64,000 bases of DNA from an uncultured Candidatus Saccharibacteria bacterium (GTDB lineage Bacteria > Patescibacteriota > Minisyncoccia > Phycocordibacterales > UBA9973). The notes under the pieces were generated by a model. That model did no database searches and was not told the DNA's origin. It saw only the letters and a list, made by a program, of their open reading frames with translations. The translations under genes were made by a program, and so were the position numbers. Where the stretch lies: assembly GCA_964456475.1 (NCBI GenBank), contig CAYVZI010000006.1:7074-71073 (forward strand). Direction: 5' to 3'. Of this stretch, positions 2,147-30,063 are shown one piece after another. How positions within the stretch are numbered: position 1 is the stretch's first letter; each line of letters starts with the position of its first letter.

Positions 2147-5100
2147 TTATTTTTCTTCTTCTGTTTTCTTTCCTTGTTCGTCGCGCTTGTCTACGAATCC
2201 TGTTCCAGCTGGAATGAGGCGTCCGATGATCACGTTTTCCTTAAGTCCACGAAGTGTGTCTACTCCACCGCGAATCGCGTTGGTGATGAGCACGCGGTTT
2301 GTGTTTTGGAATGAAGCAGCTGAGAGCCATGACTTGGTCGTAAGTGCAGTTTCTGAGATACCAAGTACGAGTGATTCTGCTGTTGCTTCTGTGAGACCCT
2401 TGATCTTAAGTGATGCGTTCTCATCGAGAAGCTCAACTGCTTCCACGATTTCGCTTGGAGAAAATCCTGATTCACCAGCATCCTTGATCTTGCGACGTGA
2501 GAACATTTGGCGAATGATGATTTCGATGTGCTTGCGAGAAATTGATGCACCCTGGAGTTCGTACACTTTGTTGATTTCGTGAATGATGTATTCTTCTGCA
2601 CGCTCGCGACCTCCGTATTTGAAGATCTCGGCAATATCTGCAGAACCGTCTGTCATAAGATCACCCTTCTTCACATTGTCGCCCTTGGCAACGATTGCCT
2701 GGCGGTGTGGTGGTACATCGTATGTAGTTTCGTTTGCTTTGCCATCCACCTTTGTATCATGAAGGACGACGATTGAGCGTTCTGTTGCGTTGATGCGGAT
2801 ATCGATGACAGTTCCATCATCATGCGCAACAACTGCAGGATTCTTTGGAAGTCGGCGTTCGAAGATTTCTTCGACACGTGGAAGACCAGCCGTAATGTCG
2901 ACACCTGCGAGACCTCCGGCGTGGAAGGTTCGAAGTGTGAGCTGTGTTCCTGGTTCACCGATCGCTTGTGCAGCAACGATTCCAACCGCTTCTCCAACCT
3001 TGACCAAATCATTGCGTCCCAAGTCGAGACCGTAACAACTCTGACAGATTCCATACACTGTCTTACAAGTGAGTGGTGAACGAACGAAAGCTTCTGTGAT
3101 TCCAGCTTGTTCGAGTTTGAGCGCTTCTTCTTTTGAGATGAGATATCCACGCTTGTGAATCACATTACCATCCTTGTCTTTGAGATCAGCTGCGAGGATG
3201 CGTCCGCGGATTGTCTTACTGATTGGAATTTCAATACCAAGAACATTGTCCTTGTGCATGAGTTTTCCTTCTTTTGTTCCACAATCTTCTTCAGTGATAA
3301 CCACATCTTGTGCAACGTCAACGAGACGGCGAGTGAGGTATCCAGCTTTCGCAGTGTTGAGCGCTGTGTCGGCAAGACCTTTACGTGATCCGTGAGTACA
3401 GATGAAGTATTCAATCGGAGAAAATCCTTCCTTGAACGATGGGATGATTGGGAAATCAATCGTGCGTCCAGATGGGTTCACGATCATACCTTTCATTCCG
3501 GCCATCTGCGTGAGGTTTGAAACCGATCCGCGGGCTTTTGAAGTAATCATGTCGCTCGCTGAACTTCCATCCACCATTGTTTCTGGAATGAGCTTTTCGA
3601 TATCCTTCTTTACACCTTCCCAGATTTCGAGAACCTTGCGGTAACGCTCTTCTTCAGAGAGGAGACCTTCACCGTATTGCTCTTCGACTTCTTTTTGTTT
3701 TGCGCGTCCAGCAGCAACCACTGCAGGCTTACCTTCTGGAACCTTGATGTTGTCGATTCCCCATGAGATACCTGACTTTGTTGAGTACGTAAATCCGAAA
3801 TTCTTGATCTTGTCGAGAAGATCCGGAGTCGCGTCAATGCCGTAGTGCATGATGAATTCATCCACAAGAGTATTCAATCGTGTCTGTCCGATGACTTCGT
3901 TCAAATATGGGAAGTCGTCTGGAAGAATTGAGTTGAAGAGGATTCGTCCTACAGTCGTCTCAAATGGCTTGCCTTCGAACTTTGCATATTTTTCTTTTTC
4001 AGTTCCAAGGATAGTCACCTTTGCGCGAAGTGCGAGCTCATCGAATGAGTACGCAGTGATCGCCTGGTTTGGGCTACCGAACATTTTGCCTTCACCCTTT
4101 TGGTTTGGCATAAGTTTTGTCATCCAGAAACATCCAAGTGCCATATCCATACGTGGAGATGTGATTGGGTCACCGTTCTGAGGTTTCAAGAGGTTCTTGT
4201 TTGAAGCCATGCGTTCCTCAGCTTCCTGTTGAGCAGGTTTTGAAAGTGGAACGTACACAGCCATCTGGTCTCCGTCGAAGTCGGCGTTGAACGCTGGACA
4301 GACGAGTGGGTGAACCTGGATCGCATTTCCTTCGATAAGGATCGGCTGGAAAGCCTGAATACCGAGACGGTGAAGCGTCGGTGCACGGTTGAGGAGCACG
4401 CGCTTGCCTTTGATTTCTTCTTCAAGGATTGCCCACACTTCTGGAATTCCATCTTCAATGAGACGGTTTGCTCCACGAATGTTGTATGCGAGTTCTTGTG
4501 CGATAAGTTTTGAAATCACGAATGGACGGAAGAGTTCGAGTGCCATGTGTTTTGGAAGTCCACACTGAGAAAGTTTGAGTGTAGGACCGACCACGATAAC
4601 AGAACGTCCAGAGTAGTCCACGCGCTTTCCAAGCAAGTTCTGACGGAAGAGACCTTGTTTTGATTTCAAGTTGTCTGAAAGAGATTTGAGTGCACGGCGC
4701 TGTGCCTGGTTCATCGCAACAGAGTCGTTCTGACGAGCGATTGAGTTGTCGATGAGAGCATCCACAGCTTCCTGCAAGATACGCTTTTCGTTACGCAAGA
4801 TCACGTCTGGCGCACCGATTTCCTTGAGCTTGCGGAGACGGTTGTTTCGGTTGATCACGCGACGGTAAAGGTCGTTGATGTCAGATGTCGCATGACGTCC
4901 TCCTTCAAGAGCCACCATTGGGCGAAGTGCCGGCGGGATGACTGGGATGACGGTGAGGAACATCCATTCTGGACGAATGCCTGAAGTGATCATCGAACGA
5001 ATAAGCGATAGGCGCTTTTCGAGCTTGTCCTTTTCAACAGCACTTGCCTTCTCAGATGCAGCTTCTGAAATTTCCTGAAGCTTTTTAAGATCAAGATTTT

Positions 5101-5770
5101 TCAATACAGAGTAGATCGCTTCGGCACCGATTGATGCTTCGAAACATGTTCCGTATTTGAGTGAGTAGCGGTGATATGCGATTTCGGTGAGCACTTTACC
5201 TTCGTAAATTTCGCCGATTTCTTTTTTCGCAGTCATCAAGAGTTCCTTGAGCTTGGTCTTTGTGTCTTCGTCTGCAGAAGATTTGACCTTGGTCTTGTAT
5301 TCATTTTCAAGACTCTTCAAGATCTTGTCTTTTTCTTCTTGATAGACCTTCATCACGATGTATCCGGCAAAGTAAATTACCTTTTCGAGATCAGTCGCAG
5401 TGATGTTGAGGAGAATACTCATGCGAGATGGAACACCACGCAAGAACCAGATATGCGCAACCGGAGTCGCGAGTTCGATGTGACCCATGCGTTCACGGCG
5501 AACGATTGAGCGAGTGACTTCAACTCCACATTTTTCACAAACGATATCCTTGTAGCGAATGCGTCGGTATTTTCCACAGTAACATTCGTAATCTTTTTCC
5601 GGCCCGAAGATGCGTTCGTCGAAGAGACCTCCACGTTCTGAGCGTCCGGTACGATAGTTGATTGTTTCAGGTTTTGTGACCTCACCGTATGACCAATCGC
5701 GGATGCGATCAGGACTTGCGAGTTTGAGCGAGATTGATTCGAAACCAGTGTTTGTATCAATTGTTTTCAT
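2147..5770 (-). CDS. rpoC: DNA-directed RNA polymerase subunit beta'
   Basis: 1207 aa. [11 protein letters not shown] catalytic motif, zinc-binding CxxC N-terminus, adjacent to rpoB. Confidence 0.95.
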
Positions 5771-5775
5771 ATTAA

Positions 5776-5810
5776 TTAGGGTTTAGGGATTAGGGGTAAG
5801 GGATTAGAAA
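5776..5810 (+). repeat. Telomere-like G-rich tract TTAGGGTTTAGGGATTAGGGGTAAGGGATTAG. It is a G-quadruplex motif: GGG-N4-GGG-N4-GGGG-N3-GGG.
   Basis: Read directly. Four G3+ runs with 3-4 nt loops in the 60-bp rpoB-rpoC spacer. Confidence 0.7.
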
Positions 5811-5829
5811 ATTCTAATTCAAACCAAAA

Positions 5830-8800
5830 CTATTCCTTATTAGCTTCATTAGTTTCTCGACCTGTGTACCCTTTCTGCAAATCAACATCGAGTGCAAGTC
5901 CTCGGAGGTAATTCAACATAACTGAGAATGATGCTGGTGTGTTTGGAACTGGGATTTCTTCGCCCTTGATGATCGCGTCGAATGCCTGTGAACGTCCCAT
6001 GATATCGTCAGATTTTACAGTGAGCATTTCGCGAAGTGTGTGCGATGCACCGTAACCTTCGAGAGCCCAGACTTCCATTTCTCCAAAACGCTGACCTCCA
6101 CCTTGAGCTTTACCTCCGAGTGGCTGTTGCGTGATGAGACTGTACGGACCAATCGAACGCATGTGAATCTTGTCTTCCACCATGTGGTGCAGTTTGAGCA
6201 TGTACATGATACCGACAGCTACATCTTGTTCGAATTTGTCTCCAGTACGTCCATCGTAAAGTGGAATAGATCCTGATTCTGGGAATCCAGCTTTGACGAG
6301 TTCTTCCTTGATTTCGAAATCGCGAGCTCCAGCAAATGGAGGTACGACTGCTTGGTAGCCGAGCGTGTTTGCCGCAAGACCCAAGTGCATTTCAAGAATC
6401 TGTCCGAGGTTCATACGAGATGGAACTCCAAGCGGTGTAAGGATCACGTCGACAGGAGTACCGTCCTGCATGAATGGCATTTCTTCTTGTGGAAGAATTG
6501 TTGAGATAACACCCTTGTTTCCGTGACGACCTGCGAGCTTATCACCCACAGACACGTTACGAAGCTGAGCAACTTCGATGACTACTTTCTTGATGATTCC
6601 TGATTCGAGCTGATGACCTTCGGCACGTGAAAAGATCTTCACGCCGATGATGCGTCCACGCTTTCCGTGTTCAAGACGAAGTGATGTGTCTTTCACATCG
6701 CGAGCCTTTTCCGCAAAGATAGATCGGAGCAAGCGCTCTTCTGGAGTAAGTTCTGTTTCGCCCTTTGGTGTGATCTTTCCAACAAGAATATCGTTCTCGC
6801 GGATTTCTGCACCGATGCGAATGATACCTTCTTCGTCGAGGTCTTTGAGTTTGACTTCACCGACGTTTGGAATATCGCGTGTAGTGATTTCTGGTCCGAG
6901 CTTTGTATCACGCACGACACAGATATATTCTTCCACATGAATCGATGTGAAGACTGAGTCTTTTACAAGACGGTCAGAAAGAATAATCGCATCTTCGTAG
7001 TTGCGTCCTGCCCATGACATAAATGCTACAAGCACGTTTTGTCCAAGCGCGATTTGTCCGTTGTCAGAAGATGACATGTCGGCAAGGAGTTGACCTTTCT
7101 TCACTTCCTGTCCTACAGAGACCACTGGTCGCTGATGGAATGAAGTAAAGTTGTTTGTACGTGAGAAGTTGATGAGTGTGTATTCCTTTGTTCCAGATTT
7201 GCCCTTGACCACGACTCGCTTTCCATCCATGTGAGTGACTGTTCCTGCTTCTTCAGCAAGTACGAGACGTCCAGAAAATGGAGCAGCCTTTTCTTCGATA
7301 CCGGTAGAGACGAGCGGAGCGTTTGGCACGAGACATGGAGTCGCCTGCTTCTGCATGTTTGATCCCATGAGTGCACGGTTCGCGTCATTGTGTTCAAGGA
7401 AAGGCACCATCGCAGTCGCGATTGAGAATGCCTGATATGGAACAACGTCGATGAAGTCGATTTCGTCGCGAGAGATGATACCTGGTTCTGTCTTGATACG
7501 AGCTTCAACTTCTGCATCGCGAAGCACACCCTTTTCATCTACTGGGTTTGCCGCGTGAGCGATGTTGTACTTTTCTTCTTCAAGCGCGTTTAGGTACACG
7601 ATTTCATTCGTGACTTTTCCTTTGACCACTTTCACGTATGGAGTTTCGATGATTCCGAAATCATTGATGCGTGCATATATAGAGAGGTGCAAGATAAGAC
7701 CGATGTTCGGACCTTCAGGAGTGTGGATCGGACAGACGCGACCGTAGTGAGAAGTGTGCACGTCACGCACTTCAAGACCTGCGCGTTCGCGTGTGAGACC
7801 GCCGGGTCCAAGAGCCGAAAGAATTCGGATGTGCTCGATTTCAGCCAAGAGGTTTTCCTGGTTCATAAATTGCGAGAGCTGGTTCGTGGTGAAGAATTCC
7901 TTGATACGAGCCTGCATCGGACGCTGGTTGATGATCTGGATCGGAAGTGCCGCCGCTGTATCTATAGTAGACATACGGTCTTGCACGTTACGCTTGATCT
8001 GAGTCATACCCACGCGGATTTTCTGCGCGAGAAGTTCTCCCACATAACGGACGCGACGCTGTGCAAGGTGGTCGATGTCGTCAGCCTTTGCTCCAGGTGT
8101 GTGCGTGAGTTCTACGATGTATTTTACAACTTGAATGAGGTCATCTTTTGAAATAGTTCGACGCTCAAGTTCCTTTTCGCCCATGTTGAGGTCGAAGCGC
8201 TTGTTGAATCGGAAACGTCCGACCGGTGAAAGGTCGTAGCGGTCTTTTGAAAAGAGTGCGGTGATAAATTCGCGTGCATTGTCTGCAGTCGCGAGATCAC
8301 CGTCACGAAGACGCTTGTACATTTCGATTGTTGCATCGCCAGGAGTCTTGGCAGTGTCTTTTGCAAGACATGTTGCAATGACGTTTGCTACGCGTTCGTC
8401 GTCGGCAAATGCAGCCTTGATTTCATCGTCAGTAGCCATTCCCATAGCACGAAGAAGAGACGTAATTGGGAATTTACGTTTTTTGTCGATACGCACGTAG
8501 ATCACGCCGTCAGCTTCAGCATCGATTTCAATCCAAACTCCGCGAGCTGGAATGATTTTTGCACCGAAATACATCTTGCCTTTGAGTTCGTTTTCTGTGA
8601 AGAAGATACCGAACGATCGTGCAAGCTGCGCGACGATAACGCGTTCAACACCGTTGATGATGAACGTACCGTGATTGGTCATGACTGGAATATCAGAAAG
8701 GAAGATTTCCTGTTCCTTTGCGACGCCACCGGCAAGCTTGTTCACAAGCTTCACGTTCACCTTAAGCGGTGCTTCGTAAGAAAGCTTGTTTTGCTTTGCA

Positions 8801-9111
8801 TGGAATTCATCACACTTCGGCTCGCCAAGCGAAAACGAAGTAAACTCAAGCTCGAATTTCTTGCCTGAGTAATCAGAAATAGGAGAAAATTCCTTAAAAA
8901 TTTCTCCGATGCCATTTTCGACCAAGTCTTTGAACGATTTGATTTGCATTTCCAGCAAATCAGGAAACTCTGCGAGTGATGCTTTGTACTTTTGGAAGTA
9001 CTTTTTTGGGCGGGGCCCGTTGGCATGTATCGACATATCGTTATTTTTAGAACACCCATATATAGTGCATTTCTTTGTTGCTTCGCTCGTTTGTTCCCGC
9101 AATGTACCCAA
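5830..9111 (-). CDS. rpoB: DNA-directed RNA polymerase subunit beta
   Basis: 1093 aa. Conserved beta-subunit blocks (GEMEVWALEGYGA, NMQRQAVPL-like region). Confidence 0.95.
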   Translation of the reverse strand: MGTLREQTSEATKKCTIYGCSKNNDMSIHANGPRPKKYFQKYKASLAEFPDLLEMQIKSFKDLVENGIGEIFKEFSPISDYSGKKFELEFTSFSLGEPKCDEFHAKQNKLSYEAPLKVNVKLVNKLAGGVAKEQEIFLSDIPVMTNHGTFIINGVERVIVAQLARSFGIFFTENELKGKMYFGAKIIPARGVWIEIDAEADGVIYVRIDKKRKFPITSLLRAMGMATDDEIKAAFADDERVANVIATCLAKDTAKTPGDATIEMYKRLRDGDLATADNAREFITALFSKDRYDLSPVGRFRFNKRFDLNMGEKELERRTISKDDLIQVVKYIVELTHTPGAKADDIDHLAQRRVRYVGELLAQKIRVGMTQIKRNVQDRMSTIDTAAALPIQIINQRPMQARIKEFFTTNQLSQFMNQENLLAEIEHIRILSALGPGGLTRERAGLEVRDVHTSHYGRVCPIHTPEGPNIGLILHLSIYARINDFGIIETPYVKVVKGKVTNEIVYLNALEEEKYNIAHAANPVDEKGVLRDAEVEARIKTEPGIISRDEIDFIDVVPYQAFSIATAMVPFLEHNDANRALMGSNMQKQATPCLVPNAPLVSTGIEEKAAPFSGRLVLAEEAGTVTHMDGKRVVVKGKSGTKEYTLINFSRTNNFTSFHQRPVVSVGQEVKKGQLLADMSSSDNGQIALGQNVLVAFMSWAGRNYEDAIILSDRLVKDSVFTSIHVEEYICVVRDTKLGPEITTRDIPNVGEVKLKDLDEEGIIRIGAEIRENDILVGKITPKGETELTPEERLLRSIFAEKARDVKDTSLRLEHGKRGRIIGVKIFSRAEGHQLESGIIKKVVIEVAQLRNVSVGDKLAGRHGNKGVISTILPQEEMPFMQDGTPVDVILTPLGVPSRMNLGQILEMHLGLAANTLGYQAVVPPFAGARDFEIKEELVKAGFPESGSIPLYDGRTGDKFEQDVAVGIMYMLKLHHMVEDKIHMRSIGPYSLITQQPLGGKAQGGGQRFGEMEVWALEGYGASHTLREMLTVKSDDIMGRSQAFDAIIKGEEIPVPNTPASFSVMLNYLRGLALDVDLQKGYTGRETNEANKE

Positions 9112-9400
9112 TGTACATTTTGGTCACAAGCCTCGCTCGCGCCTCGAACTGCATCTATCTATGTGTATTCTTTTTTATGGTTTCCAAAATAACAGATAAA
9201 GAAAGCAAAACCCATCTCTTTCGTTAGAGTTTGCTTTATCCGTCTTATATTTTTTTGACCGACAGCTTGGGGAGCTGTGTTTAGCTGCTAAAGGCTACGA
9301 ATAACAACTAAAACTCAATCAGTCCGTAGTGCAAATAGTCTACTTATTTTTCACCTTGTGTCAAGTGAAAAACGGGGCATTCTTCCCCTCCGCGTATCGT

Positions 9401-9484
9401 GTCATCCCGGACTTGATCCGGGATCCATTTTTTGGGCCTTTTTCCCCTCCTTTTCAGGTCATTCCCGGCCTGGCCGGGAAATCC
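9401..9484 (+). repeat. Two family-1 palindromic elements in tandem orientation: 9401-9428 GTCATCCCGGACTTGATCCGGGATCCAT and 9458-9484 GTCATTCCCGGCCTGGCCGGGAAATCC.
   Basis: Perfect 7-8 bp inverted arms. They generate the spurious ORF 9329-9535 (VIPDLIRDP / VIPGLAGKS). Confidence 0.8.
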
Positions 9485-9497
9485 AAGCCCCGAGTCC

Positions 9498-9532
9498 AAA
9501 CGGCTCATTTCCGCCCACTTGAGCCGTTTAAC
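9498..9532 (+). repeat. Family-2 hairpin element AAACGGCTCATTTCCGCCCACTTGAGCCGTTTAAC
   Basis: 10-bp stem AAACGGCTCA/TGAGCCGTTT with 12-nt loop. A near-identical copy is at 13523-13557 and a disrupted copy at 14834-14896. Confidence 0.8.
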
Positions 9533-9588
9533 TAAAAAGCCCTTAACCACTTTTCTGCTTTACTTTTTATCGCTGAATTTCTTTTCAA

Positions 9589-9620
9589 AGCTGACTATTT
9601 GGGACGAAGTTGGAACCCAT
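9589..9620 (+). repeat. Island direct repeat copy 1: AAGCTGACTATTTGGGACGAAGTTGGAACCC
   Basis: About 30-bp motif CAAGCTGnnnnnyTGGGACrAwGTTrGAAy. Also at 10508-10540 and 11275-11306, one copy at each gene boundary of the island. Confidence 0.7.
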
Positions 9621-9782
9621 TTGATTTAAAAGCCTCGTAATTCCAAGTTATCGAGATTCTACGGAGAATGTTGACATTCTATTTTATGAATGGTTAAGTA
9701 TACCTGAATCGAACGGCAACTGCCCAGTACCATTCCGTAAATGAGTGTCGTAAACTCGAACTTTCATTAAAAAATTAATAGA

Positions 9783-10454
9783 ATGGAAACAACAGCAAGT
9801 CTCGCGCAATTCCATAAACTTATGGGTCTTATTTTAAGTAAGTACCCTGAACTTGAAGGAAAGCTGGACAAACAAATGTTACAATTACTCATCAAAGACG
9901 ACTCGCGTCTCGCTCATGAGTTCACATTGTTTATTAACAATGGAGGAATGCACAACCTAAGTCACGTAATTAATTGTGACAAAACCCCAGAACTATTCCA
10001 TCCTGATGATGGTTATTATCTTAAGGGTCATCAAAAACATAGTCCGTTTGCCTGGAACCCAAATCAAATTGAGTTAATCCCTCTTTTTTCATTCTGGGAG
10101 GGATTAAATAATCAACAGGAATTTCAGAGTAACAGGATGCGGTATGAGTTTTTGAAAAAATACGATGCATGTAATGCAAACATTTCAGACTACCTCTACG
10201 AACACCCCTACTTGTTTCCAAGTAAATGGGATAATCATCTCCTTGTCTTTTTAGGTACGCAATATGGCAGGCTGTATGGAGGAAAAAAGAACAATGGTTG
10301 TTGGGTTAGATGTATTGGCAAAGATTATGATGGCAGGTTACCAGGGAGAGCACTGGCATACTTTAAAAATGTAACCTCACACTCTTTTAAATATCCCCTA
10401 GGGAATAAATTTAAAAATAATGATGTGATGGTTCCTGTTTTCAAAAAAATATAA
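9783..10454 (+). CDS. Hypothetical protein, island cargo, no recognisable domain
   Basis: 223-aa ORF, AT-rich. Followed by a hairpin terminator (CAGTGTGATC..GATCACACTG+T-run, 10459-10500). Confidence 0.5.
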   Translation: METTASLAQFHKLMGLILSKYPELEGKLDKQMLQLLIKDDSRLAHEFTLFINNGGMHNLSHVINCDKTPELFHPDDGYYLKGHQKHSPFAWNPNQIELIPLFSFWEGLNNQQEFQSNRMRYEFLKKYDACNANISDYLYEHPYLFPSKWDNHLLVFLGTQYGRLYGGKKNNGCWVRCIGKDYDGRLPGRALAYFKNVTSHSFKYPLGNKFKNNDVMVPVFKKI

Positions 10455-10507
10455 AACACCAAGACAAGCCAAACAGTGTGATCTCATTTGATCACACTGT
10501 TTTTATT

Positions 10508-10540
10508 TTAAATTCACAAGCTGACCGTCTGGGACGATGT
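10508..10540 (+). repeat. Island direct repeat copy 2: CAAGCTGACCGTCTGGGACGATGTTGGAACC
   Basis: See 9589-9620. Lies between convergent gene ends. Confidence 0.7.
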
Positions 10541-10570
10541 TGGAACCTTTTTAAACCAAAGACCTACGAC

Positions 10571-11212
10571 CTAACTCTGTTTACTCTTGTTTTCATCAGC
10601 CTTTTTATTAAACCTTTCTATTACATCACGAACAACATCTTCAGAGAACAAAGAACGCATATCCACTATATATCTATAGTCCTCTTTAATATACTCAGTT
10701 CCCTTATAGTTTTCTATATAAACTTCGACTCTCTCTCTTAGTAATTTTTTAATAACGCTCTCTGGCGCCGAAAAGAATCGCTGCTCATCCAAATATTTTT
10801 CTTCTTGAATAAGAGCATCTTCAGATAAAATCGTCGGATCTGTAACCCTTAATTCTATACCTCCAGGAATTCTATAAACTGGGATAACTTCGAAGCGCTC
10901 TACTTTCTTTATATTCAAAGTAAATTTCGGACGTTTGTGTCTTTTTAACATCGAGTAAGTTAGTGTCCAATTATCCCCATCCCATGCTCCATGCTTTTCT
11001 ACAAGATCCTTAAGTATTGGCTCAAGTTTCCAAAAATCCTCTTCCTGAACATAAATGTCTATATCTTGATTCTCTCTTATATATTTTCCATTTATCCCGG
11101 CTACTCCAACACCTCCAAATACCCAGTATTTGATTCCAGCATTAGAGATTGCGGGCAACACGTCTTCAAAAACCGGCCCTAAATGTTCATTGATTTTTTG
11201 TGTAGTTTCCAT
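10571..11212 (-). CDS. Nucleotidyltransferase-fold protein, Lnu(A)/LinA-ANT(2'')-like (NTase_2 family)
   Basis: 213 aa. YWVFGGVGVAGINGKYIRENQDIDIYV matches the Lnu/ANT(2'') hG[GS]...DxD pattern (compare LinA YWLDGGWGVDVL...RDIDI). It is co-directional with the OLD nuclease and 183 bp downstream of it. Confidence 0.6.
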   Translation of the reverse strand: METTQKINEHLGPVFEDVLPAISNAGIKYWVFGGVGVAGINGKYIRENQDIDIYVQEEDFWKLEPILKDLVEKHGAWDGDNWTLTYSMLKRHKRPKFTLNIKKVERFEVIPVYRIPGGIELRVTDPTILSEDALIQEEKYLDEQRFFSAPESVIKKLLRERVEVYIENYKGTEYIKEDYRYIVDMRSLFSEDVVRDVIERFNKKADENKSKQS

Positions 11213-11274
11213 TTTCTGAATAGTGATTTATTTCAAAAATAATACTTCTTAATAACTTAATTATACCAAACTTA

Positions 11275-11306
11275 CAAGCTGTGCAGTTTGGGACAAAGTT
11301 AGAATT
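11275..11306 (+). repeat. Island direct repeat copy 3: CAAGCTGTGCAGTTTGGGACAAAGTTAGAAT
   Basis: See 9589-9620. Lies between the OLD gene end and the NTase start. Confidence 0.65.
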
Positions 11307-11394
11307 TTATTTAGCCTATAATCATGTTCTCTTGGTAGCTTTATGCACCTCTGGTATCCCAAAGAATTAATTAAGGTTTCTTCATTTTAATCAG

Positions 11395-13338
11395 TTAAAC
11401 TTTTTCTTTCGCTGCAAGAACTTTTAATGTTTCGTTGACCTTATTAATATACGTATAATAGGTATCAGCTATATTTTCTATCGTCAAATTTGTGAGCAAA
11501 GCATCTTTTAATTCACCAATAAGTGCTTCCCCCTCAATCTGAGTAATTGAATTTCTTTTATACCAACCTCGGACGCTTTCAATACGGCCTTTTGCATCAT
11601 TAATATCAGCAGCTAAAAATTCTGGTTTTGAATTTTTATCAGTTGTATTTTTCAATTGTTGCAAGAAATAATTTTCTTCAAAGAAGTCTTCCGCTGTATA
11701 TACAGCGTTGAAACTAGGGTCGAAATCGTGATAGGTGTACCAAAAACCATAGCCTTTATTATTTTCATACTCACGTTTTTTGTCTTTAGCAATGGCATCC
11801 GCATCACTTAATATTAAGCAATTACGATTTCCTGCTTCAAACGCTGGTGTGATGTTTTGTATATGCTTAACACCCTGAGAATGACAGAATCCAAATTTTT
11901 CCAATTCTTTAAAAACTTTCTTTCTTGTAGGAAGAGTTGTTTTAGAGGCTCGAAAAAATAAATCTTTATCTCTCCATCCTTCGAATATAAGATTCCATTC
12001 TTTTAGATTTGAAAATATGGAGTAACCCAGAGATTTATATATAACCTCTTCATCTTGAATGTTTGAATCTCCCACTACTTCAAGTTTTGTAATTTCTTTT
12101 TTCTTTTTCACCAAGTAGTGTCGTGCTATAACTTTCTCGTCGATCATAAAAATCGAATGAGTAGAAAAGAGGACAACATTTGTTTGAGAAATTTTTAAAA
12201 GTTCGTCTCTCAAAAACCTTACTCCTGTTGGATGTAAACTTATCTCCGGTTCATCAATGATCAAAACGGAATTTTGTAGTGTGTTTATGTTGCTTTGAGT
12301 AGAGATAAGAAGCAAAAAAGTAATAAATCTCTTGAATCCGTCACTTCTTTGATTTAATTCATAATTATTGTCGGAATCTTTTACCGTAGCAACTATATCA
12401 GAACCGTCGGTTTTTAATTCAAAAGAAACTTCGGGATACTCCTCCCAAACTTGTTTGAAATACTCAGTATTTTTATCAGCAACCTTTCTGAGAAAATTTG
12501 ATAATCGAGTTTGAGAAATCCCCTTTGCTGTATTAACTTCATTAGCGATTCGTGCATTTTCTATGCCGGCAAGATTAAACATTCTTGCTAAAGGAATACA
12601 GGTTGTGGGGTCACTTATAAAACCATCCAAAGGTATTCTAGAAGGTAGTAAGTAAGATTCGTTGTACTCCCAATATATAACATCAGGTAACCACTCCTCT
12701 ACTTTTTCAATGTGAATATTCCCCAGCGTTTCTTGAATATCCGAGAGATCTTTAACATCCACTAAATAAGCTGGGTCAATAGGATTAAATTCATCTAAAT
12801 TAACAAATTGGTAGCCTGAAAGCTTAAACGTCTCCCCTGACTTCGAGACTACTTCATAGTCTCCGGGGCAAGTATCAGAAACTTTTTTCAAGTTATTTAA
12901 AACTTTGTATTCTTTTCCTAGAACAAAATAGCGTGCACTTCTTTTTTGTGTAAGTAAATCAATATGATAGACCGCCTCAATCCTTGTTTTACAAAAATCT
13001 TCAATATTCAGCCCCTTACCGTTGTGAGAAATAACAGGAACATCCTTTATAAAAAGAAAATTTTCTTTAAAGTCTGCCACAATCTCATCTAAGTCTCCCT
13101 TCTCAAAAGAAAAAATGAATTTTACGTAAGCGACACTAGGAACATCTTCGCTAGATAATACTTCTCGAACATATTTTTTTTCAACTTTCTGCGTTGCGTC
13201 TAGAAGTTTTACAGCTTTTAAAATATTACTCTTACCAGACTCATTTATTCCCACTAAAACACGACAGGTAGGATTAAATTCAACCGCCGCATCTTTTATA
13301 GATAAAAAATTCTTAATTTCGGCTTTTTTAAGCTTCAT
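11395..13338 (-). CDS. OLD-family ATP-dependent endonuclease (ABC-type ATPase + C-terminal Toprim), class-1 OLD or GajA-like
   Basis: 647 aa. Walker A GINESGKSNILKA at the N-terminus. Walker B/D-loop LIIDEPEISLHPTGVRFL. C-terminal Toprim signature IFEGWRDKDLF ... CLILSDADAIAKD (conserved E and DxD). Confidence 0.8.
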   Translation of the reverse strand: MKLKKAEIKNFLSIKDAAVEFNPTCRVLVGINESGKSNILKAVKLLDATQKVEKKYVREVLSSEDVPSVAYVKFIFSFEKGDLDEIVADFKENFLFIKDVPVISHNGKGLNIEDFCKTRIEAVYHIDLLTQKRSARYFVLGKEYKVLNNLKKVSDTCPGDYEVVSKSGETFKLSGYQFVNLDEFNPIDPAYLVDVKDLSDIQETLGNIHIEKVEEWLPDVIYWEYNESYLLPSRIPLDGFISDPTTCIPLARMFNLAGIENARIANEVNTAKGISQTRLSNFLRKVADKNTEYFKQVWEEYPEVSFELKTDGSDIVATVKDSDNNYELNQRSDGFKRFITFLLLISTQSNINTLQNSVLIIDEPEISLHPTGVRFLRDELLKISQTNVVLFSTHSIFMIDEKVIARHYLVKKKKEITKLEVVGDSNIQDEEVIYKSLGYSIFSNLKEWNLIFEGWRDKDLFFRASKTTLPTRKKVFKELEKFGFCHSQGVKHIQNITPAFEAGNRNCLILSDADAIAKDKKREYENNKGYGFWYTYHDFDPSFNAVYTAEDFFEENYFLQQLKNTTDKNSKPEFLAADINDAKGRIESVRGWYKRNSITQIEGEALIGELKDALLTNLTIENIADTYYTYINKVNETLKVLAAKEKV

Positions 13339-13522
13339 GCTGTTAAAAGTAGCATTTATTGATGAGGGTGTCTACAGCATCCAAAGGATCAATTTTGATC
13401 AAAAAAGTTAAAATATTTCTATAGGAAAAATGGGGTCAGGTACCATTCTTGAATTCGAACTTGATTGACACTCTAGCACCCCAAGCTTACTCCTCCCCTC
13501 CCAAAACGCAAATCCCAAACCC

Positions 13523-13557
13523 AAACGGCTCATTTCCGCCCATTTGAGCCGTTTGAC
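13523..13557 (+). repeat. Family-2 hairpin element AAACGGCTCATTTCCGCCCATTTGAGCCGTTTGAC
   Basis: Direct copy of 9498-9532. The two bracket the 9.5-13.5 kb island. Confidence 0.8.
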
Positions 13558-13680
13558 TACTTGACAATATATGAAAATGTTATAAGGTTTGCAAAAGACT
13601 AAATAAACAGCAAAGCGTCTAAGGAATTGGATTTTTTGCTGTTTATTTAGTTTTCACCATTTAAAAAATAATGTTAATTT

Positions 13681-14466: not shown

Positions 14467-15108
14467 CTAAATCTTAGTATACAAAACCCCTTTCCCCGTC
14501 TTGCCCGTTTGTTTAATTTTCCCCTCCTTCTCAAGAATCGAAAGATACCGCGTCGCTGTCGCGTCAGACACATGCAACAGTTTCTCAACGTCATCATTCG
14601 TCACGCTTGTTCGCTTCGCAAACAAACCCATAACTTTATCCAGCTTTTTCCTTTTCCTAAATTGAATTACACTTTGCGCCTTCACCAAAAGTTCCCTCAT
14701 CCCACTGCGCGGAGCAACTTGAACCGACGGAGGCACCGTGCCCGATTCTACTTTTGCAGAATTTGGGGAAGCCTCCGTCGGCTTCTGCAATTCTGGTTTT
14801 ACGGTCTCAGCAATCGACTCAGCCACAGGTGATAACGGCTCATTTCCGCCCACTGGGCCCGATCCCACTTCAGTGGGATTTAGGGTTTGAGCCGTTGTAC
14901 CCGATTCTACTTCTGCAGAATTTAAGGTTGGTTCCGGTACGGCTTCTACAGGAGCTGGAGTTGGTTCGATTGGAGCTTCTACAGGAGCAGGAGTCTCCAC
15001 CACAGGAGTCACAGTCTCGTCAGCAACAACAGGCTCAACTGGAGTCTCAATTGGAACCGTTTCTACAATAGGAGTTACCTCATCCGCCATATGCAAATAG
15101 TATATCAA
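14467..15108 (-). CDS. Pro/Val/Glu-rich low-complexity protein with a C-terminal winged-helix DNA-binding domain. It contains an internal ~50-bp direct duplication and an interrupted family-2 hairpin element.
   Basis: 213 aa. C-terminus VTNDDVEKLLHVSDATATRYLSILEKEGKIKQTGKTGKGVLY (wHTH). N-terminal PVE repeats. Family-2 copy at 14834-14896, read in-frame. Confidence 0.5.
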   Translation of the reverse strand: MIYYLHMADEVTPIVETVPIETPVEPVVADETVTPVVETPAPVEAPIEPTPAPVEAVPEPTLNSAEVESGTTAQTLNPTEVGSGPVGGNEPLSPVAESIAETVKPELQKPTEASPNSAKVESGTVPPSVQVAPRSGMRELLVKAQSVIQFRKRKKLDKVMGLFAKRTSVTNDDVEKLLHVSDATATRYLSILEKEGKIKQTGKTGKGVLYTKI

Positions 15109-19446: not shown

Positions 19447-19515
19447 GTCATGCCGGACTACGATCCGGCATCCATTATGAATTTTTCGTGGATCCCGGAT
19501 CAAGTCCAGGATGAC
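19447..19515. repeat. Family-1 palindromic element pair (MITE-like): 19447-19475 GTCATGCCGGACTACGATCCGGCATCCAT and an inverted partner at 19489-19515.
   Basis: Two hairpins in opposite orientation, 13 bp apart, in the trmD/Nudix intergenic region. Confidence 0.8.
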
Positions 19516-19520
19516 ACAGT

Positions 19521-29216: not shown

Positions 29217-29328
29217 GATTTAAAGCTTTTGATATGATTGTTAGAGAAAAAATTATCGTTTGTATTATATACCTATATTGACAAAAAGTCAATACCGTAT
29301 TGTATATTGATAAATAACCCATTAATCC

Positions 29329-30040
29329 ACATCTTGAGGTTTAACCTCAAGATGTGATAGTATTAACCATATGAGAAAAGCACCCCTGGTAGAGGAACAT
29401 TTTTACCATATATACAATCGAGGAGTAGATAAGCGTAAAGTCTTTGAAAGTAAAAAAGATTATTCGCGTTTTTTGTATAACCTATACCTTTCAAATTCTA
29501 CACAAGCTTTTAACTTGTCCGATCTAATCAAATATCAAGAATCTAAAGAATTGATATTTTCCCTGCCTCGCGAAGATGAATTGGTTTCAATTCATGCATA
29601 CAGTTTAATGCCGAACCATTTTCATTTGATTATTAGTCAAAAAAAGGAAAAAGGTATCAGTCTTTTCATGCAAAAGCTCACTACTGCATACACTATGTAT
29701 TTTAATAAGAAGAGCAATCGTTCAGGTTCTCTTTTTCAAGGAACTTTCAAATCTAAACATATCGCATCTGATGATTATCTTCGTTACCTATTTGCATACG
29801 TACATGCAAATTCCTTCTCAACAATCGAGGGAGAGATATCTGAAAAAAATATTGAAAAAGTTCTCAATTATGAATATTCAAGCATTCTCGATTATCAAGA
29901 CATTATTCGACCAGAAAATTCAATCGTGAGAACAGATTTTTTTGAAAAAGAATTTACGAATAAAGATGGTCTTATTGAACAATTAAAAGCATGGCTCTCT
30001 TACCATCAACATCCTGAGGTTAAACCTCAAGATATCCAAA
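29329..30040 (+). mobile_element. IS200/IS605-like or REP-associated HUH tyrosine transposase element: transposase gene flanked by imperfect palindromic hairpins
   Basis: 5' hairpin CACATCTTGAGGTT-AA-ACCTCAAGATGTG (29329-29357). Related 3' hairpin CCTGAGGTT-AA-ACCTCAAGA (30016-30037). Confidence 0.6.
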
Positions 30041-30063
30041 ATAATGGTATAGTAGGCGTATGA
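29371..30063 (+). CDS. Y1 HUH transposase (IS200-like TnpA / RAYT)
   Basis: 230 aa. HFYHIYNRG, HUH motif MPNHFHLI, GSLFQGTFKSKHI. Stop overlaps the RNase R start (ATGA). Confidence 0.7.
   Translation: MRKAPLVEEHFYHIYNRGVDKRKVFESKKDYSRFLYNLYLSNSTQAFNLSDLIKYQESKELIFSLPREDELVSIHAYSLMPNHFHLIISQKKEKGISLFMQKLTTAYTMYFNKKSNRSGSLFQGTFKSKHIASDDYLRYLFAYVHANSFSTIEGEISEKNIEKVLNYEYSSILDYQDIIRPENSIVRTDFFEKEFTNKDGLIEQLKAWLSYHQHPEVKPQDIQNNGIVGV

What the first reader, a model, noticed from the sequence alone, without database searches (positions are those of the whole stretch)
9496..13560. Compact island upstream of rpoB: OLD-family ATPase/Toprim nuclease + Lnu/ANT(2'')-like nucleotidyltransferase + orphan gene, bracketed by hairpin repeats. 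Candidate (possibly new) defence module.
Seen: the 647-aa protein has a Walker A (GINESGKSN), a D-loop/Walker B (LIIDEPEISLHPTG), and a C-terminal Toprim signature (IFEGWRD ... ILSDADA). This is the architecture of OLD-family nucleases (P2 Old, Gabija GajA, PARIS AriA/B). Immediately downstream and co-directional is a 213-aa nucleotidyltransferase-fold protein (FGGVGVAGINGKY...DIDIY) of the LinA/ANT(2'') type. There is no UvrD-like helicase (so not Gabija) and no DUF4435 partner (so not classic PARIS). A convergent 223-aa orphan ORF completes the island. The whole ~4 kb is delimited by two direct copies of a 35-bp hairpin element (9498, 13523) and sits between rpoB and unrelated accessory genes. 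Inference: an OLD nuclease paired with a small NTase is not one of the named OLD classes I know. It could be a new two-gene anti-phage system, or a class-1 OLD next to a passenger resistance-type NTase.
Basis: partly seen in the sequence, partly recalled or inferred. Interest (0 to 1): 0.75.

Follow-up and report, generated by a model that had tools for sequence, protein, structure and literature searches.

The report
Stand-alone OLD nuclease, unrelated neighbours
The region holds a single-gene OLD-type anti-phage nuclease next to two unrelated accessory genes, in a repeat-punctuated swap-prone spot upstream of rpoB; it is not a new two-gene defence system.

Summary
The 647-aa protein is an OLD-family ABC-ATPase/Toprim nuclease. 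The 213-aa protein has a LnuA/ANT(2'')-type nucleotidyltransferase fold. The 223-aa ORF and the two hairpin copies are real.

The proposed OLD-NTase system is not supported.
- None of 80 distinct loci encoding relatives of this OLD carries the NTase or any other conserved partner.
- Relatives of the NTase sit in at least seven other contexts without an OLD. One of these copies is 95.6% identical at the DNA level.
- A sibling strain is 96-97% identical across rpoB, ORF223 and the NTase. At the OLD position it carries a different, essentially unrelated OLD-family gene.

The OLD is therefore a swappable single-gene (Class 1-type) defence cassette. The NTase is an independent gene with its own promoter-like region. 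It scores about 25 bits against Lnu family cut-offs of 300 or more, so it is not a bona fide Lnu enzyme. ORF223 is not an orphan: it belongs to an uncharacterised family with 241 detectable relatives.

The bracketing hairpin belongs to a dispersed element family found in 13 unrelated metagenomic contexts. A second short motif, here called D2, follows individual genes and marks the strain breakpoint.

Verdict: a new member of a known kind, with moderate interest for the cassette-swapping architecture.

The parts
11395..13338 (-). OLD-A. A 647-aa OLD-family protein: N-terminal ABC ATPase (Walker A G30-K36, signature S332-G334, Walker B D362-E363, H-loop H394) and C-terminal Toprim (E453, D512xD514). 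Stand-alone, Class 1-type.
   Evidence: Pfam AAA_15 at 9e-22 and AAA_21 at 7e-18. PADLOC Old at 6.9e-29 and ATPase-Toprim_I-B at 4e-19. The motif residues are invariant in 27 homologues. The family profile hits GajA at 4e-12 and TsOLD 6p74 at 4.7e-10, and the alignment runs through the Toprim glutamate.
11305..13479 (.). The strain-variable segment: the OLD-A gene with its own upstream and downstream non-coding DNA. It is absent from sibling contig L244, where a different OLD-family gene occupies the slot.
   Evidence: blastn of the window against L244 gives 97.0% identity over 9168-11304, then nothing until 13480-13542. The L244 gene at 3760-5622 shares only 29% identity over 84 aa with OLD-A, yet it is ATPase+Toprim by PADLOC and Pfam.
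10571..11212 (-). 213-aa nucleotidyltransferase with a LnuA/ANT(2'')-like Pol-beta NTase fold. G33-G34 and D50xD52 are conserved. It has an extra C-terminal helical region. It is an independent gene.
   Evidence: Pfam Aminoglyc_resit at 1e-6, matching residues 17-72 only. NCBIfam Lnu models score 15-25 bits against cut-offs of 300-350. The AF2 model has pLDDT 89.6. Foldseek best hits are LnuA 4fo1 at 2e-7 and ANT(2'')-Ia, then FKRP and TM1012. Catalytic residues are invariant in 16 sequences.
11260..11281 (-). Conserved NTase upstream region with an extended -10-like element (TGGTATAAT at 11268-11260), 48 nt before the ATG. It travels with the NTase gene into other genomic contexts.
   Evidence: Sequence. 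blastn identity with L093/L094 (86%) and L242 (95.6%) covers the ORF plus about 70 nt upstream (to 11281) and stops there. Promoter function is inferred.
9783..10454 (+). 223-aa protein of an uncharacterised family with no Pfam model. The conserved core is residues ~60-190, with motifs HVIxCD, LNANxxDYL..P.LxPxxW and (F/L)xGTxY.
9479..9534 (+). Left copy of the hairpin element (core 9498-9529: AAACGGCTCA-N12-TGAGCCGTTT).
   Evidence: It belongs to a dispersed family.
13504..13559 (+). Right copy of the hairpin element (core 13522-13555). Its left flank, 13480-13523, recurs twice in sibling contig L244, at cassette junctions.
14834..14896 (+). Long form of the hairpin element: the outer arms AACGGCTCA/TGAGCCGTT enclose an inner hairpin. 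It lies in frame inside the 213-aa HTH gene (14467..15108, -) and encodes TAQTLNPTEVGSGPVGGNEPL.
   Evidence: The same long form is intergenic in L244 at 5801-5863.
9583..9635 (-). D2a: a copy of the D2 motif (core GGTTCCAACTTCGTCCCAAA on the - strand).
   Evidence: nhmmer E=1e-11.
10511..10565 (-). D2b: a copy of the D2 motif starting 24 nt after the NTase stop, in the orientation of that gene.
   Evidence: nhmmer E=2.8e-13. Equivalent copies lie 3' of the NTase in L242, 3' of the OLD homologue in L006, and 3' of OLD-B in L244.
11270..11304 (-). D2c: a degenerate copy of the D2 motif between OLD-A and the NTase, at the exact point where similarity to the sibling strain ends.
   Evidence: nhmmer E=0.029, which is weak. 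It is syntenic with the perfect D2 at L244 3599-3618.
10471..10502 (.). Bidirectional terminator-like hairpin (13-bp stem, T-runs on both sides) between the convergent NTase and ORF223.

Best explanation
The stretch upstream of rpoB is a low-G+C patch of independently acquired single-gene cassettes. The genome is probably a Patescibacteria (CPR) genome. This is not one multi-gene system.

(1) The 647-aa protein is a stand-alone, Class 1-type OLD-family enzyme. An ABC ATPase senses or is licensed by an infection cue. It drives a C-terminal two-metal Toprim nuclease that nicks or degrades nucleic acid (phage or host DNA, or tRNA) to stop phage replication. It sits in a slot where different OLD-family genes replace one another between close strains.

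(2) The 213-aa protein is a separate LnuA/ANT(2'')-fold nucleotidyltransferase with its own promoter-like region. It most likely adenylylates a small molecule, such as an antibiotic or xenobiotic hydroxyl.

(3) The 223-aa protein belongs to a third, uncharacterised family.

Short conserved DNA elements sit at the cassette junctions: the 30-64-nt hairpin element, and the ~20-50-nt D2 motif found 3' of genes. They are the likely recombination points.

Shown: domain identities, lack of co-occurrence, strain-level replacement, and repeat positions. Inferred: anti-phage role, nuclease substrate, NTase substrate, and recombination at the repeats.
For: OLD identity:
- Pfam and PADLOC hits.
- Invariant Walker A/B, signature, H-loop, Toprim E and DxD in 27 homologues.
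- The family profile matches GajA and TsOLD.

Stand-alone status:
- 162 relatives were confirmed in reference genomes and the best 80 were kept. They span Patescibacteria, Acidobacteriota, Proteobacteria, Planctomycetota, Clostridia and methanogens.
- tblastn finds neither the NTase nor ORF223 in any of them.
- Neighbour clustering finds no conserved partner. The recurrent neighbours are serine recombinases (12 loci), type I R-M genes (about 9), Tyr integrases (6) and type II R-M genes.
- Only 20 of 71 loci have a tightly linked downstream gene, and those genes are all different.

NTase independence:
- Contexts of P0121 (94%), P0293 (>=90%), P0125/P0126 (83-85%), P0127 (57%) and P0132 (53%) all lack an OLD.
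- DNA similarity is confined to the NTase ORF plus about 70 nt upstream.

Strain replacement:
- L244 is 96-97% identical over rpoB-ORF223-NTase but carries a different ATPase-Toprim gene.

Repeats at junctions.

Literature: Class 1 OLDs are defined as single genes (PMC10568477). They can defend alone, as shown by Vc OLD, a DNA nickase (PMC12392090), and by P2 Old, which cuts tRNA anticodon stems (PMC12445682).
Against: - No experiment was done. The anti-phage role of this OLD subfamily rests on homology and on defence-island or mobile-element context.
- Pfam's OLD-like_TOPRIM model does not hit OLD-A. The Toprim call rests on motifs, the PADLOC models and a profile alignment.
- In both strains of this lineage the NTase lies next to an OLD-family gene. 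A functional link could also explain that.
- D2c is weak (E=0.029).
- No recombinase was found in the window that could act on the repeats.
Confidence: 0.75

Rival explanations
1. OLD plus NTase form a new two-gene anti-phage system. The NTase acts as sensor, modifier or antitoxin partner of an OLD-type nuclease.
For: - The two genes are co-directional and 182 nt apart.
- In the sibling strain L244 the same NTase again lies next to an OLD-family ATPase-Toprim gene, though an unrelated one.
- NTase-fold proteins are partners in other conflict systems. MenT and CD-NTase appear as weak structural hits.
Against: - 0 of 80 OLD-A-family loci carry the NTase.
- At least 7 NTase contexts lack any OLD, including copies at 94-96% identity.
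- The NTase carries its own conserved promoter-like region and its own 3' D2 motif.
- In L244 a hairpin and a D2 separate the two genes.
- The NTase has no PADLOC hit.
- Its best fold matches are small-molecule NTases, not MenT or CD-NTase.
Confidence: 0.07
2. The whole ~4-kb block (ORF223, NTase and OLD) is one mobile island that integrated as a unit. The two hairpin copies are its attL and attR.
For: - A direct repeat of 56 nt at 84% identity brackets the block exactly.
- G+C is uniformly low inside the block.
- All three genes are present together in the window and in its exact Logan copy.
Against: - No integrase lies in or near the block.
- The hairpin occurs in 13 unrelated contexts, several of them inside coding sequence.
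- A third, long-form copy lies outside the block.
- In L244 only the OLD part differs, while ORF223 and the NTase are retained at 97% identity.
- The NTase alone occurs elsewhere at 95.6% identity.
- Nested D2 repeats subdivide the block gene by gene.
Confidence: 0.1
3. The OLD-family protein has a housekeeping role in DNA repair or the cell cycle rather than in defence, like the archaeal Cran1 class.
For: - A non-defence class of OLD ATPases has been described in archaea (PMC12796447).
- The gene sits next to core genes (rpoB/rpoC, dnaG).
Against: - It is replaced by an unrelated OLD gene in a strain that is 96-97% identical.
- Its distribution is patchy across phyla.
- It is often embedded in R-M operons or next to recombinases.
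- It has low G+C.
Confidence: 0.05

Closest known systems
Class 1 OLD-family nucleases (P2 Old, Thermus scotoductus OLD 6P74, Vibrio cholerae Vc OLD, E. coli YbjD)
   Same: [quoted passage not shown]
- A single gene with no conserved partner.
- Found in mobile or defence contexts.
- The best PADLOC model is 'Old'.
   Different: - Only remote sequence similarity: phmmer E about 1e-3 to 6P74, profile 4.7e-10.
- Longer (647 aa against 528-586), with about 130 residues after the DxD.
- It belongs to a large clade rich in Patescibacteria that shares its own invariant Cys/Trp positions.
- Activity is untested.
Gabija GajA (Class 2 OLD)
   Same: ATPase-Toprim architecture. GajA structures are the best profile hits in the PDB sequence search (4e-12).
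   Different: No GajB/UvrD-like helicase is adjacent here, nor in 78 of 80 related loci.
PARIS AriA/AriB (Class 4) and HEC-01/HEC-04 ABC-ATPase/Toprim systems
   Same: The ATPase domain scores well against AriA and HEC-01A models. Like the HEC systems, relatives are often embedded in type I R-M operons (bioRxiv 10.1101/2024.01.29.577857).
   Different: Here ATPase and Toprim are fused in one protein. There is no separate DUF4435/Toprim gene.
LnuA / ANT(2'')-Ia antibiotic nucleotidyltransferases
   Same: The same Pol-beta NTase fold with GG...DxD. They are the top structural matches, with TM 0.50-0.69. Pfam Aminoglyc_resit matches the N-terminal 56 residues.
   Different: - 13-16% identity.
- NCBIfam Lnu scores are 15-25 bits against cut-offs of 300-350.
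- About 50 extra C-terminal residues.
- Substrate unknown.
Defence hot spots and cassette arrays (P2/P4 hot spots, integron cassettes carrying defence genes, Acinetobacter pdif modules)
   Same: - One chromosomal slot holds different defence genes in close strains.
- Single-gene units are bounded by short conserved repeats.
- Some units recur in other genomes.
   Different: - No integron integrase.
- The D2 motif is not an attC-like palindrome.
- Each unit seems to carry its own promoter.
- The host is a Patescibacteria-type genome.
- The recombination mechanism is unknown.

Membership tests
OLD-family nuclease | N-terminal ABC-type ATPase with Walker A, signature, Walker B and H-loop | tested here: met
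   AAA_15 at 9e-22, AAA_21 at 7e-18, plus SMC_N/AAA_23 at the N-terminus. G30-K36, S332/G334, D362/E363 and H394 are invariant in 27 homologues.
OLD-family nuclease | C-terminal Toprim domain with a conserved glutamate and a DxD metal-binding motif | tested here: met
   E453, G454, D512 and D514 are invariant. The PADLOC Old model aligns residues 319-523 to profile positions 244-457 of 578, and ATPase-Toprim_I-B aligns 324-551. The profile alignment to GajA includes the Toprim Glu. Caveat: Pfam OLD-like_TOPRIM gave no hit, and no structure model of this protein was made.
OLD-family nuclease | ATP-dependent or ATP-modulated nuclease activity | not testable with these tools
   Needs purified protein and DNA, plasmid or tRNA cleavage assays.
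Class 1 OLD (single-gene) | Occurs as a single gene without a conserved partner | tested here: met
   80 distinct loci show no conserved neighbour family. The NTase and ORF223 are absent from all of them.
Class 1 OLD (single-gene) | Protects against phage on its own | not testable with these tools
   Requires cloning and phage challenge.
Gabija (Class 2 OLD) | Adjacent UvrD/PcrA/Rep-like helicase (GajB) | tested here: not met
   No helicase lies within about 10 kb. A UvrD-like gene is near only 2 of 80 relatives, and on the opposite strand.
Retron-associated OLD (Class 3) | Adjacent reverse transcriptase and msr/msd non-coding RNA | tested here: not met
   There is no RT among the called genes and no Rfam hit in the window. 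NCBIfam retron_eff_Eco8 scores 54.8 bits against a cut-off of 250.
PARIS (Class 4) | Separate AriA ATPase and AriB DUF4435/Toprim genes | tested here: not met
   The ATPase and Toprim are fused, and there is no DUF4435 neighbour.
Lnu / ANT(2'') resistance nucleotidyltransferases | Scores above the curated family cut-offs | tested here: not met
   NCBIfam Lnu(P/E/A/C/D/AN2) models score 14.9-24.9 bits against cut-offs of 300-350. Pfam PF10706 scores 29.4 against 21, but it matches only profile positions 4-59 of 149.
Lnu / ANT(2'') resistance nucleotidyltransferases | Pol-beta NTase fold with GG and DxD catalytic motifs | tested here: met
   The model has pLDDT 89.6. Foldseek matches LnuA at 2e-7 and ANT(2'')-Ia at 3e-7. 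G33, G34, D50 and D52 are invariant or nearly so.
Lnu / ANT(2'') resistance nucleotidyltransferases | Nucleotidylylates lincosamides or aminoglycosides and confers resistance | not testable with these tools
   Needs MIC and enzyme assays.
Integron-type cassette array | Integron integrase and attC-type palindromic sites at the 3' ends of cassettes | tested here: not met
   tblastn with 12 recombinase queries finds no Tyr or Ser recombinase in the 64-kb window. The D2 motif lies 3' of genes but is not a palindrome.
REP / RAYT system | Short extragenic palindromes in many copies, with a cognate Y1 (IS200-like) transposase flanked by them | tested here: inconclusive
   The hairpin element is dispersed across 13 contexts, but the 64-kb window holds only 2 full copies and 1 long form. 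A Y1_Tnp gene lies at 29371-30063. It is flanked by a different hairpin, and no Y1 gene was seen in the other hairpin loci.

The most novel reading that the evidence does not exclude
The hairpin element and the D2 motif may be the recombination sites of an unrecognised cassette-exchange mechanism in Patescibacteria. It would resemble an integron in outcome but lack an integron integrase, and each cassette would carry its own promoter. This mechanism would shuffle single-gene defence and accessory cassettes, and would explain why two unrelated OLD nucleases occupy the same slot next to rpoB in strains that are 96-97% identical.
Probability: 0.17. Interest if true: 0.65.

Novelty: new member of a known kind. 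Interest (0 to 1): 0.33.

Why it matters
The proposed new OLD+NTase defence system can be dropped.

What remains is useful in smaller ways.
- It documents a large OLD clade, rich in Patescibacteria, that behaves as a stand-alone Class 1-type gene. Only a handful of Class 1 OLDs have been tested.
- It gives a clean natural example of one OLD gene being replaced by an unrelated OLD gene at the same locus in near-identical strains. The short conserved repeats at the junctions give a concrete handle for studying how ultra-small, recombinase-poor CPR genomes exchange defence genes.
- It defines two untested protein families worth a look: the NTase family (16 sequences aligned here) and the ORF223 family (241 relatives).

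Tried and rejected
- **Genome scan with the single OLD protein.** It found no relative. Repeating it with the alignment worked.
- **Exact look-up of the flanking 237-aa hydrolase, to find an empty site.** The protein is not on record.
- **Viral-contig scan with the D2 core.** It returned 120 or more hits, almost all within one coding sequence (translating as ...VWDDVGTFDGRPW...; not annotated here) shared by one set of high-G+C contigs. I rejected these as coincidental.
- **Viral-contig scan with the hairpin element.** No hit.
- **Rfam scan of the window.** No family matched.
- **tRNA scan of the window.** None found, so there is no tRNA-type att site.
- **hhalign of the ORF223 family against the two genes that follow D2 motifs in L006.** No relation.
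- **PHROGs.** It hit only OLD-like ATPase families of unknown function, and nothing for the NTase or ORF223.
- **tblastn of Ser and Tyr recombinases against the window.** Nothing.
- **The window's Y1 transposase against the hairpin-bearing loci.** Nothing.
- **A recurrent membrane-protein partner downstream of the OLD.** I considered and rejected this. Only 8 of 71 loci have one, and the proteins are unrelated to each other.

Full report
**1. Observation**

The three ORFs are as described: 647 aa at 11395..13338 (-), 213 aa at 10571..11212 (-), and 223 aa at 9783..10454 (+).

The hairpin repeat is real. A 32-nt core lies at 9498-9529 and 13523-13554 with one mismatch. None of 100 shuffles gave two matches. 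The repeat extends to 56 nt at 84% identity. Both copies fold into a 10-11-bp stem with a 12-nt loop (z = -4.0 and -5.8).

G+C drops to 0.32-0.38 between 9500 and 13500, against 0.44-0.50 in the flanks. rpoB (5830..9111) and rpoC lie immediately to the left. The called genes on the right are a hydrolase-like protein, a low-complexity HTH protein and small genes of unknown function. No helicase, reverse transcriptase or DUF4435 gene is nearby. The window has no tRNA and no Rfam family.

**2. The 647-aa protein is an OLD-family enzyme**

- Pfam gives AAA_15 (9e-22) and AAA_21 (7e-18).
- PADLOC's best model is Old (6.9e-29), followed by AriA, HEC-01A and ATPase-Toprim_I-B.
- In an alignment with 26 homologues, these positions are invariant: Walker A (G30..K36), the signature S332/G334, Walker B D362-E363, the H-loop H394, the Toprim Glu E453 (with G454, W455, D457, K458), and D512xD514.
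- A profile of that alignment hits GajA structures at 4e-12 and the Class 1 Thermus OLD (6P74) at 4.7e-10. The alignment runs through the Toprim glutamate.
- Pfam's small OLD-like_TOPRIM model does not hit, and I did not model this protein. The Toprim call therefore rests on motifs and profiles.

**3. The OLD has no conserved partner**

The family is large. About 2000 hits were found, mostly 41-46% identical, and many are labelled Patescibacteria or Paceibacterota.

A scan of reference genomes with the alignment confirmed 162 relatives. The 80 kept came from very diverse phyla, including archaeal methanogens. tblastn with the NTase and with ORF223 found neither in any of these loci.

I called and clustered all neighbouring ORFs. 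The only recurrent neighbours were:
- serine recombinases (12 loci)
- type I R-M subunits, with the OLD embedded between hsdM/S and hsdR in several loci
- tyrosine integrases (6 loci)
- type II and IIG R-M genes

Only 20 of 71 loci have a tightly linked co-directional downstream gene. Those genes are unrelated to one another: membrane proteins, a SIR2_2 protein, methyltransferases and unknowns.

By the published scheme, where classes are defined by genetic context (PMC10568477), this is Class 1-type. It is not Gabija, retron or PARIS. Class 1 OLDs can defend alone. Vc OLD is a DNA nickase that blocks phage replication (PMC12392090). P2 Old cuts tRNA anticodon stems (PMC12445682).

**4. The NTase is an independent gene**

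It matches Pfam Aminoglyc_resit only over residues 17-72 (1e-6). It scores 15-25 bits on NCBIfam Lnu models whose cut-offs are 300-350. It has no PADLOC or PHROG hit.

Fifteen relatives were found. G33-G34 and D50xD52 are conserved among them.

The AlphaFold model is confident (pLDDT 89.6). Its best structural matches are LnuA, ANT(2'')-Ia, FKRP and TM1012, at 13-18% identity. MenT and CD-NTases are much weaker hits.

The genomic contexts of relatives were examined at 94% (P0121), >=90% (P0293), 83-85% (P0125, P0126), 57% (P0127) and 53% (P0132) identity. All lack an OLD. Instead they hold GNAT, NUDIX, AAA_17, PNPOx, CYTH, EVE, GrpB and NTP_transf_2 genes.

DNA similarity to the close copies covers the ORF plus about 70 nt upstream and then stops. 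It is 86% to L093-L096 and 95.6% to L242. That upstream piece contains an extended -10-like TGGTATAAT, 48 nt before the ATG.

I infer a small-molecule nucleotidyltransferase, possibly antibiotic-modifying. The substrate is unknown.

**5. ORF223 is not an orphan**

The word-indexed search found only a 99% twin. An exhaustive phmmer search of 1.84 billion representatives found 241 proteins at E<=1e-3. They are typically about 190 aa, some contain 3-4 repeats of the domain, and they share a core at residues 60-190. None has a Pfam hit. The model (pLDDT 85.8) has no significant structural neighbour. Function is unknown.

**6. The decisive comparison: a sibling strain**

Contig L244 was found through a 90%-cluster member of ORF223. 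It is 95.8% identical to the window over 7561-9046 and 97.0% identical over 9168-11304. That span covers rpoB, the hairpin, D2a, ORF223, D2b, the NTase and its upstream region.

Similarity ends at window 11304. At that point L244 has, in order:
- a perfect D2 motif
- a hairpin copy
- a 620-aa gene (OLD-B) that shares only 29% identity over 84 residues with OLD-A

OLD-B is nevertheless an ABC ATPase plus Toprim. Its PADLOC hits are AriA at 9e-24, GajA models spanning residues 318-587, AriAB and Old. Pfam gives AAA_15/AAA_21 and a weak OLD-like_TOPRIM.

Beyond OLD-B, L244 has a 60-nt remnant of the HTH gene, a long-form hairpin element, a queuosine-salvage gene, and again the sequence that flanks the window's right hairpin.

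So between near-identical strains the variable unit is the OLD gene alone (window about 11305-13479). The locus is a swap-prone slot for OLD-type genes.

That both alleles are OLD-family could hint at a link with the NTase. Given sections 3 and 4, I rate that at about 7%.

**7. The repeats**

*Hairpin element.* The 30-nt hairpin core has 25 exact matches in groundwater metagenomes. These fall into 13 different flanking contexts that are unrelated right up to the element's edges.

In five contexts the element lies in frame, encoding ETAQMGGNEPL/F, inside the Pro/Glu/Thr-rich N-terminal region of homologues of the window's HTH protein (14467..15108). In one context it is in frame on the other strand of a 571-aa ORF. 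The rest are intergenic.

The window's own HTH gene carries a 63-nt long form at 14834-14896, with the same outer arms enclosing an inner hairpin.

The hairpins are therefore members of a dispersed family, not island-specific att sites.

*D2 motif.* A second element has the core GGTTCCAACWTCGTCCCAGA within about 50 conserved nt. It occurs:
- at window 9583-9635 and 10511-10565, and in degenerate form at 11270-11304
- three times in L244
- twice just downstream of genes in L006, the locus of the closest OLD-A homologue (61% identity)
- once after the NTase in L242

It always lies 3' of a gene and in that gene's orientation, except D2a (and its L244 equivalent), which lies upstream of and antisense to the inverted ORF223. 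It is absent from 1.3 Mb of other loci.

These positions fit single-gene cassettes joined at short conserved sites. No recombinase was found in the window. A Y1 (IS200-like) transposase gene lies at 29371-30063, but I could not link it to the elements.

**8. Verdict**

The two-gene interpretation is not.

The OLD is a new member of a known kind. The cassette and hot-spot architecture, with its two short repeat families, is the most interesting residue. It is recorded as the novel case, with probability about 0.17.

Noticed in passing
window 9499-9528, 13524-13553, 14834-14896; loci L097-L121: A 30-nt palindromic element (AACGGCTCATTTCCGCCCAYTTGAGCCGTT) is exactly conserved in 13 unrelated groundwater-metagenome contexts. 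In five it lies in frame inside the low-complexity N-terminal region of homologues of the window's HTH protein, encoding ETAQMGGNEPL. A 63-nt long form with an inner hairpin also exists. It could be REP/RPE-like or a protein-binding site. I did not find it described in the papers I searched.
   Followed up: partly
window 9583-9635, 10511-10565, 11270-11304; L006 7974-8025 and 8797-8839; L242 7687-7739; L244 1896-1948, 2824-2878, 3583-3637: The D2 motif (core GGTTCCAACWTCGTCCCAGA) sits 3' of unrelated genes, in the orientation of the gene, except the copy upstream of the inverted ORF223. It also sits at the exact breakpoint between the two strains. It is more conserved (91% over 33 nt) than the neighbouring OLD genes (68% nt identity).
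   Followed up: partly
L244 3760-5622 (-): The sibling strain carries a different OLD-family ATPase-Toprim gene (620 aa) in the same slot.
   Followed up: partly
window 29371-30063 (+): A 230-aa IS200-like Y1 transposase (RAYT-like) gene overlaps the start of an RNase R gene (30060-32126) by 4 nt. A 13-bp-stem hairpin at 29328-29356 precedes it.
   Followed up: partly
window 9404-9424 and 9461-9483; also about 19489-19517: G+C-rich palindromes lie in the rpoB-ORF223 intergenic region and produce spurious ORFs (translating as e.g. CHPGLDPGS). One of them recurs about 10 kb away at 96.6% identity over 29 nt.
   Followed up: no
loci L013, L036, L064, L065, L071, L073, L025, L052, L055: Relatives of OLD-A are embedded inside type I restriction-modification operons, between hsdM/hsdS and hsdR. 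This matches the 'defence genes embedded in defence systems' pattern.
   Followed up: partly
proteins P0138, P0140-P0142 (relatives of ORF223): Some members of the ORF223 family are 480-800 aa proteins with 3-4 tandem copies of the ~110-residue core domain. This suggests a modular binding domain.
   Followed up: no
window 34912-37152 (-): A 746-aa SMC_N/AAA_23/AAA_15 ATPase (short SMC- or RecN-like) lies elsewhere in the window. It was not examined.
   Followed up: no
L006 5478-7935: The closest OLD-A homologue (61% identity) is preceded, 23 nt upstream, by a DUF2726 (NERD-like) gene. It lies next to a Phage_CRI replication protein and a serine recombinase. This may be an integrated element carrying a DUF2726+OLD pair.
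   Followed up: no
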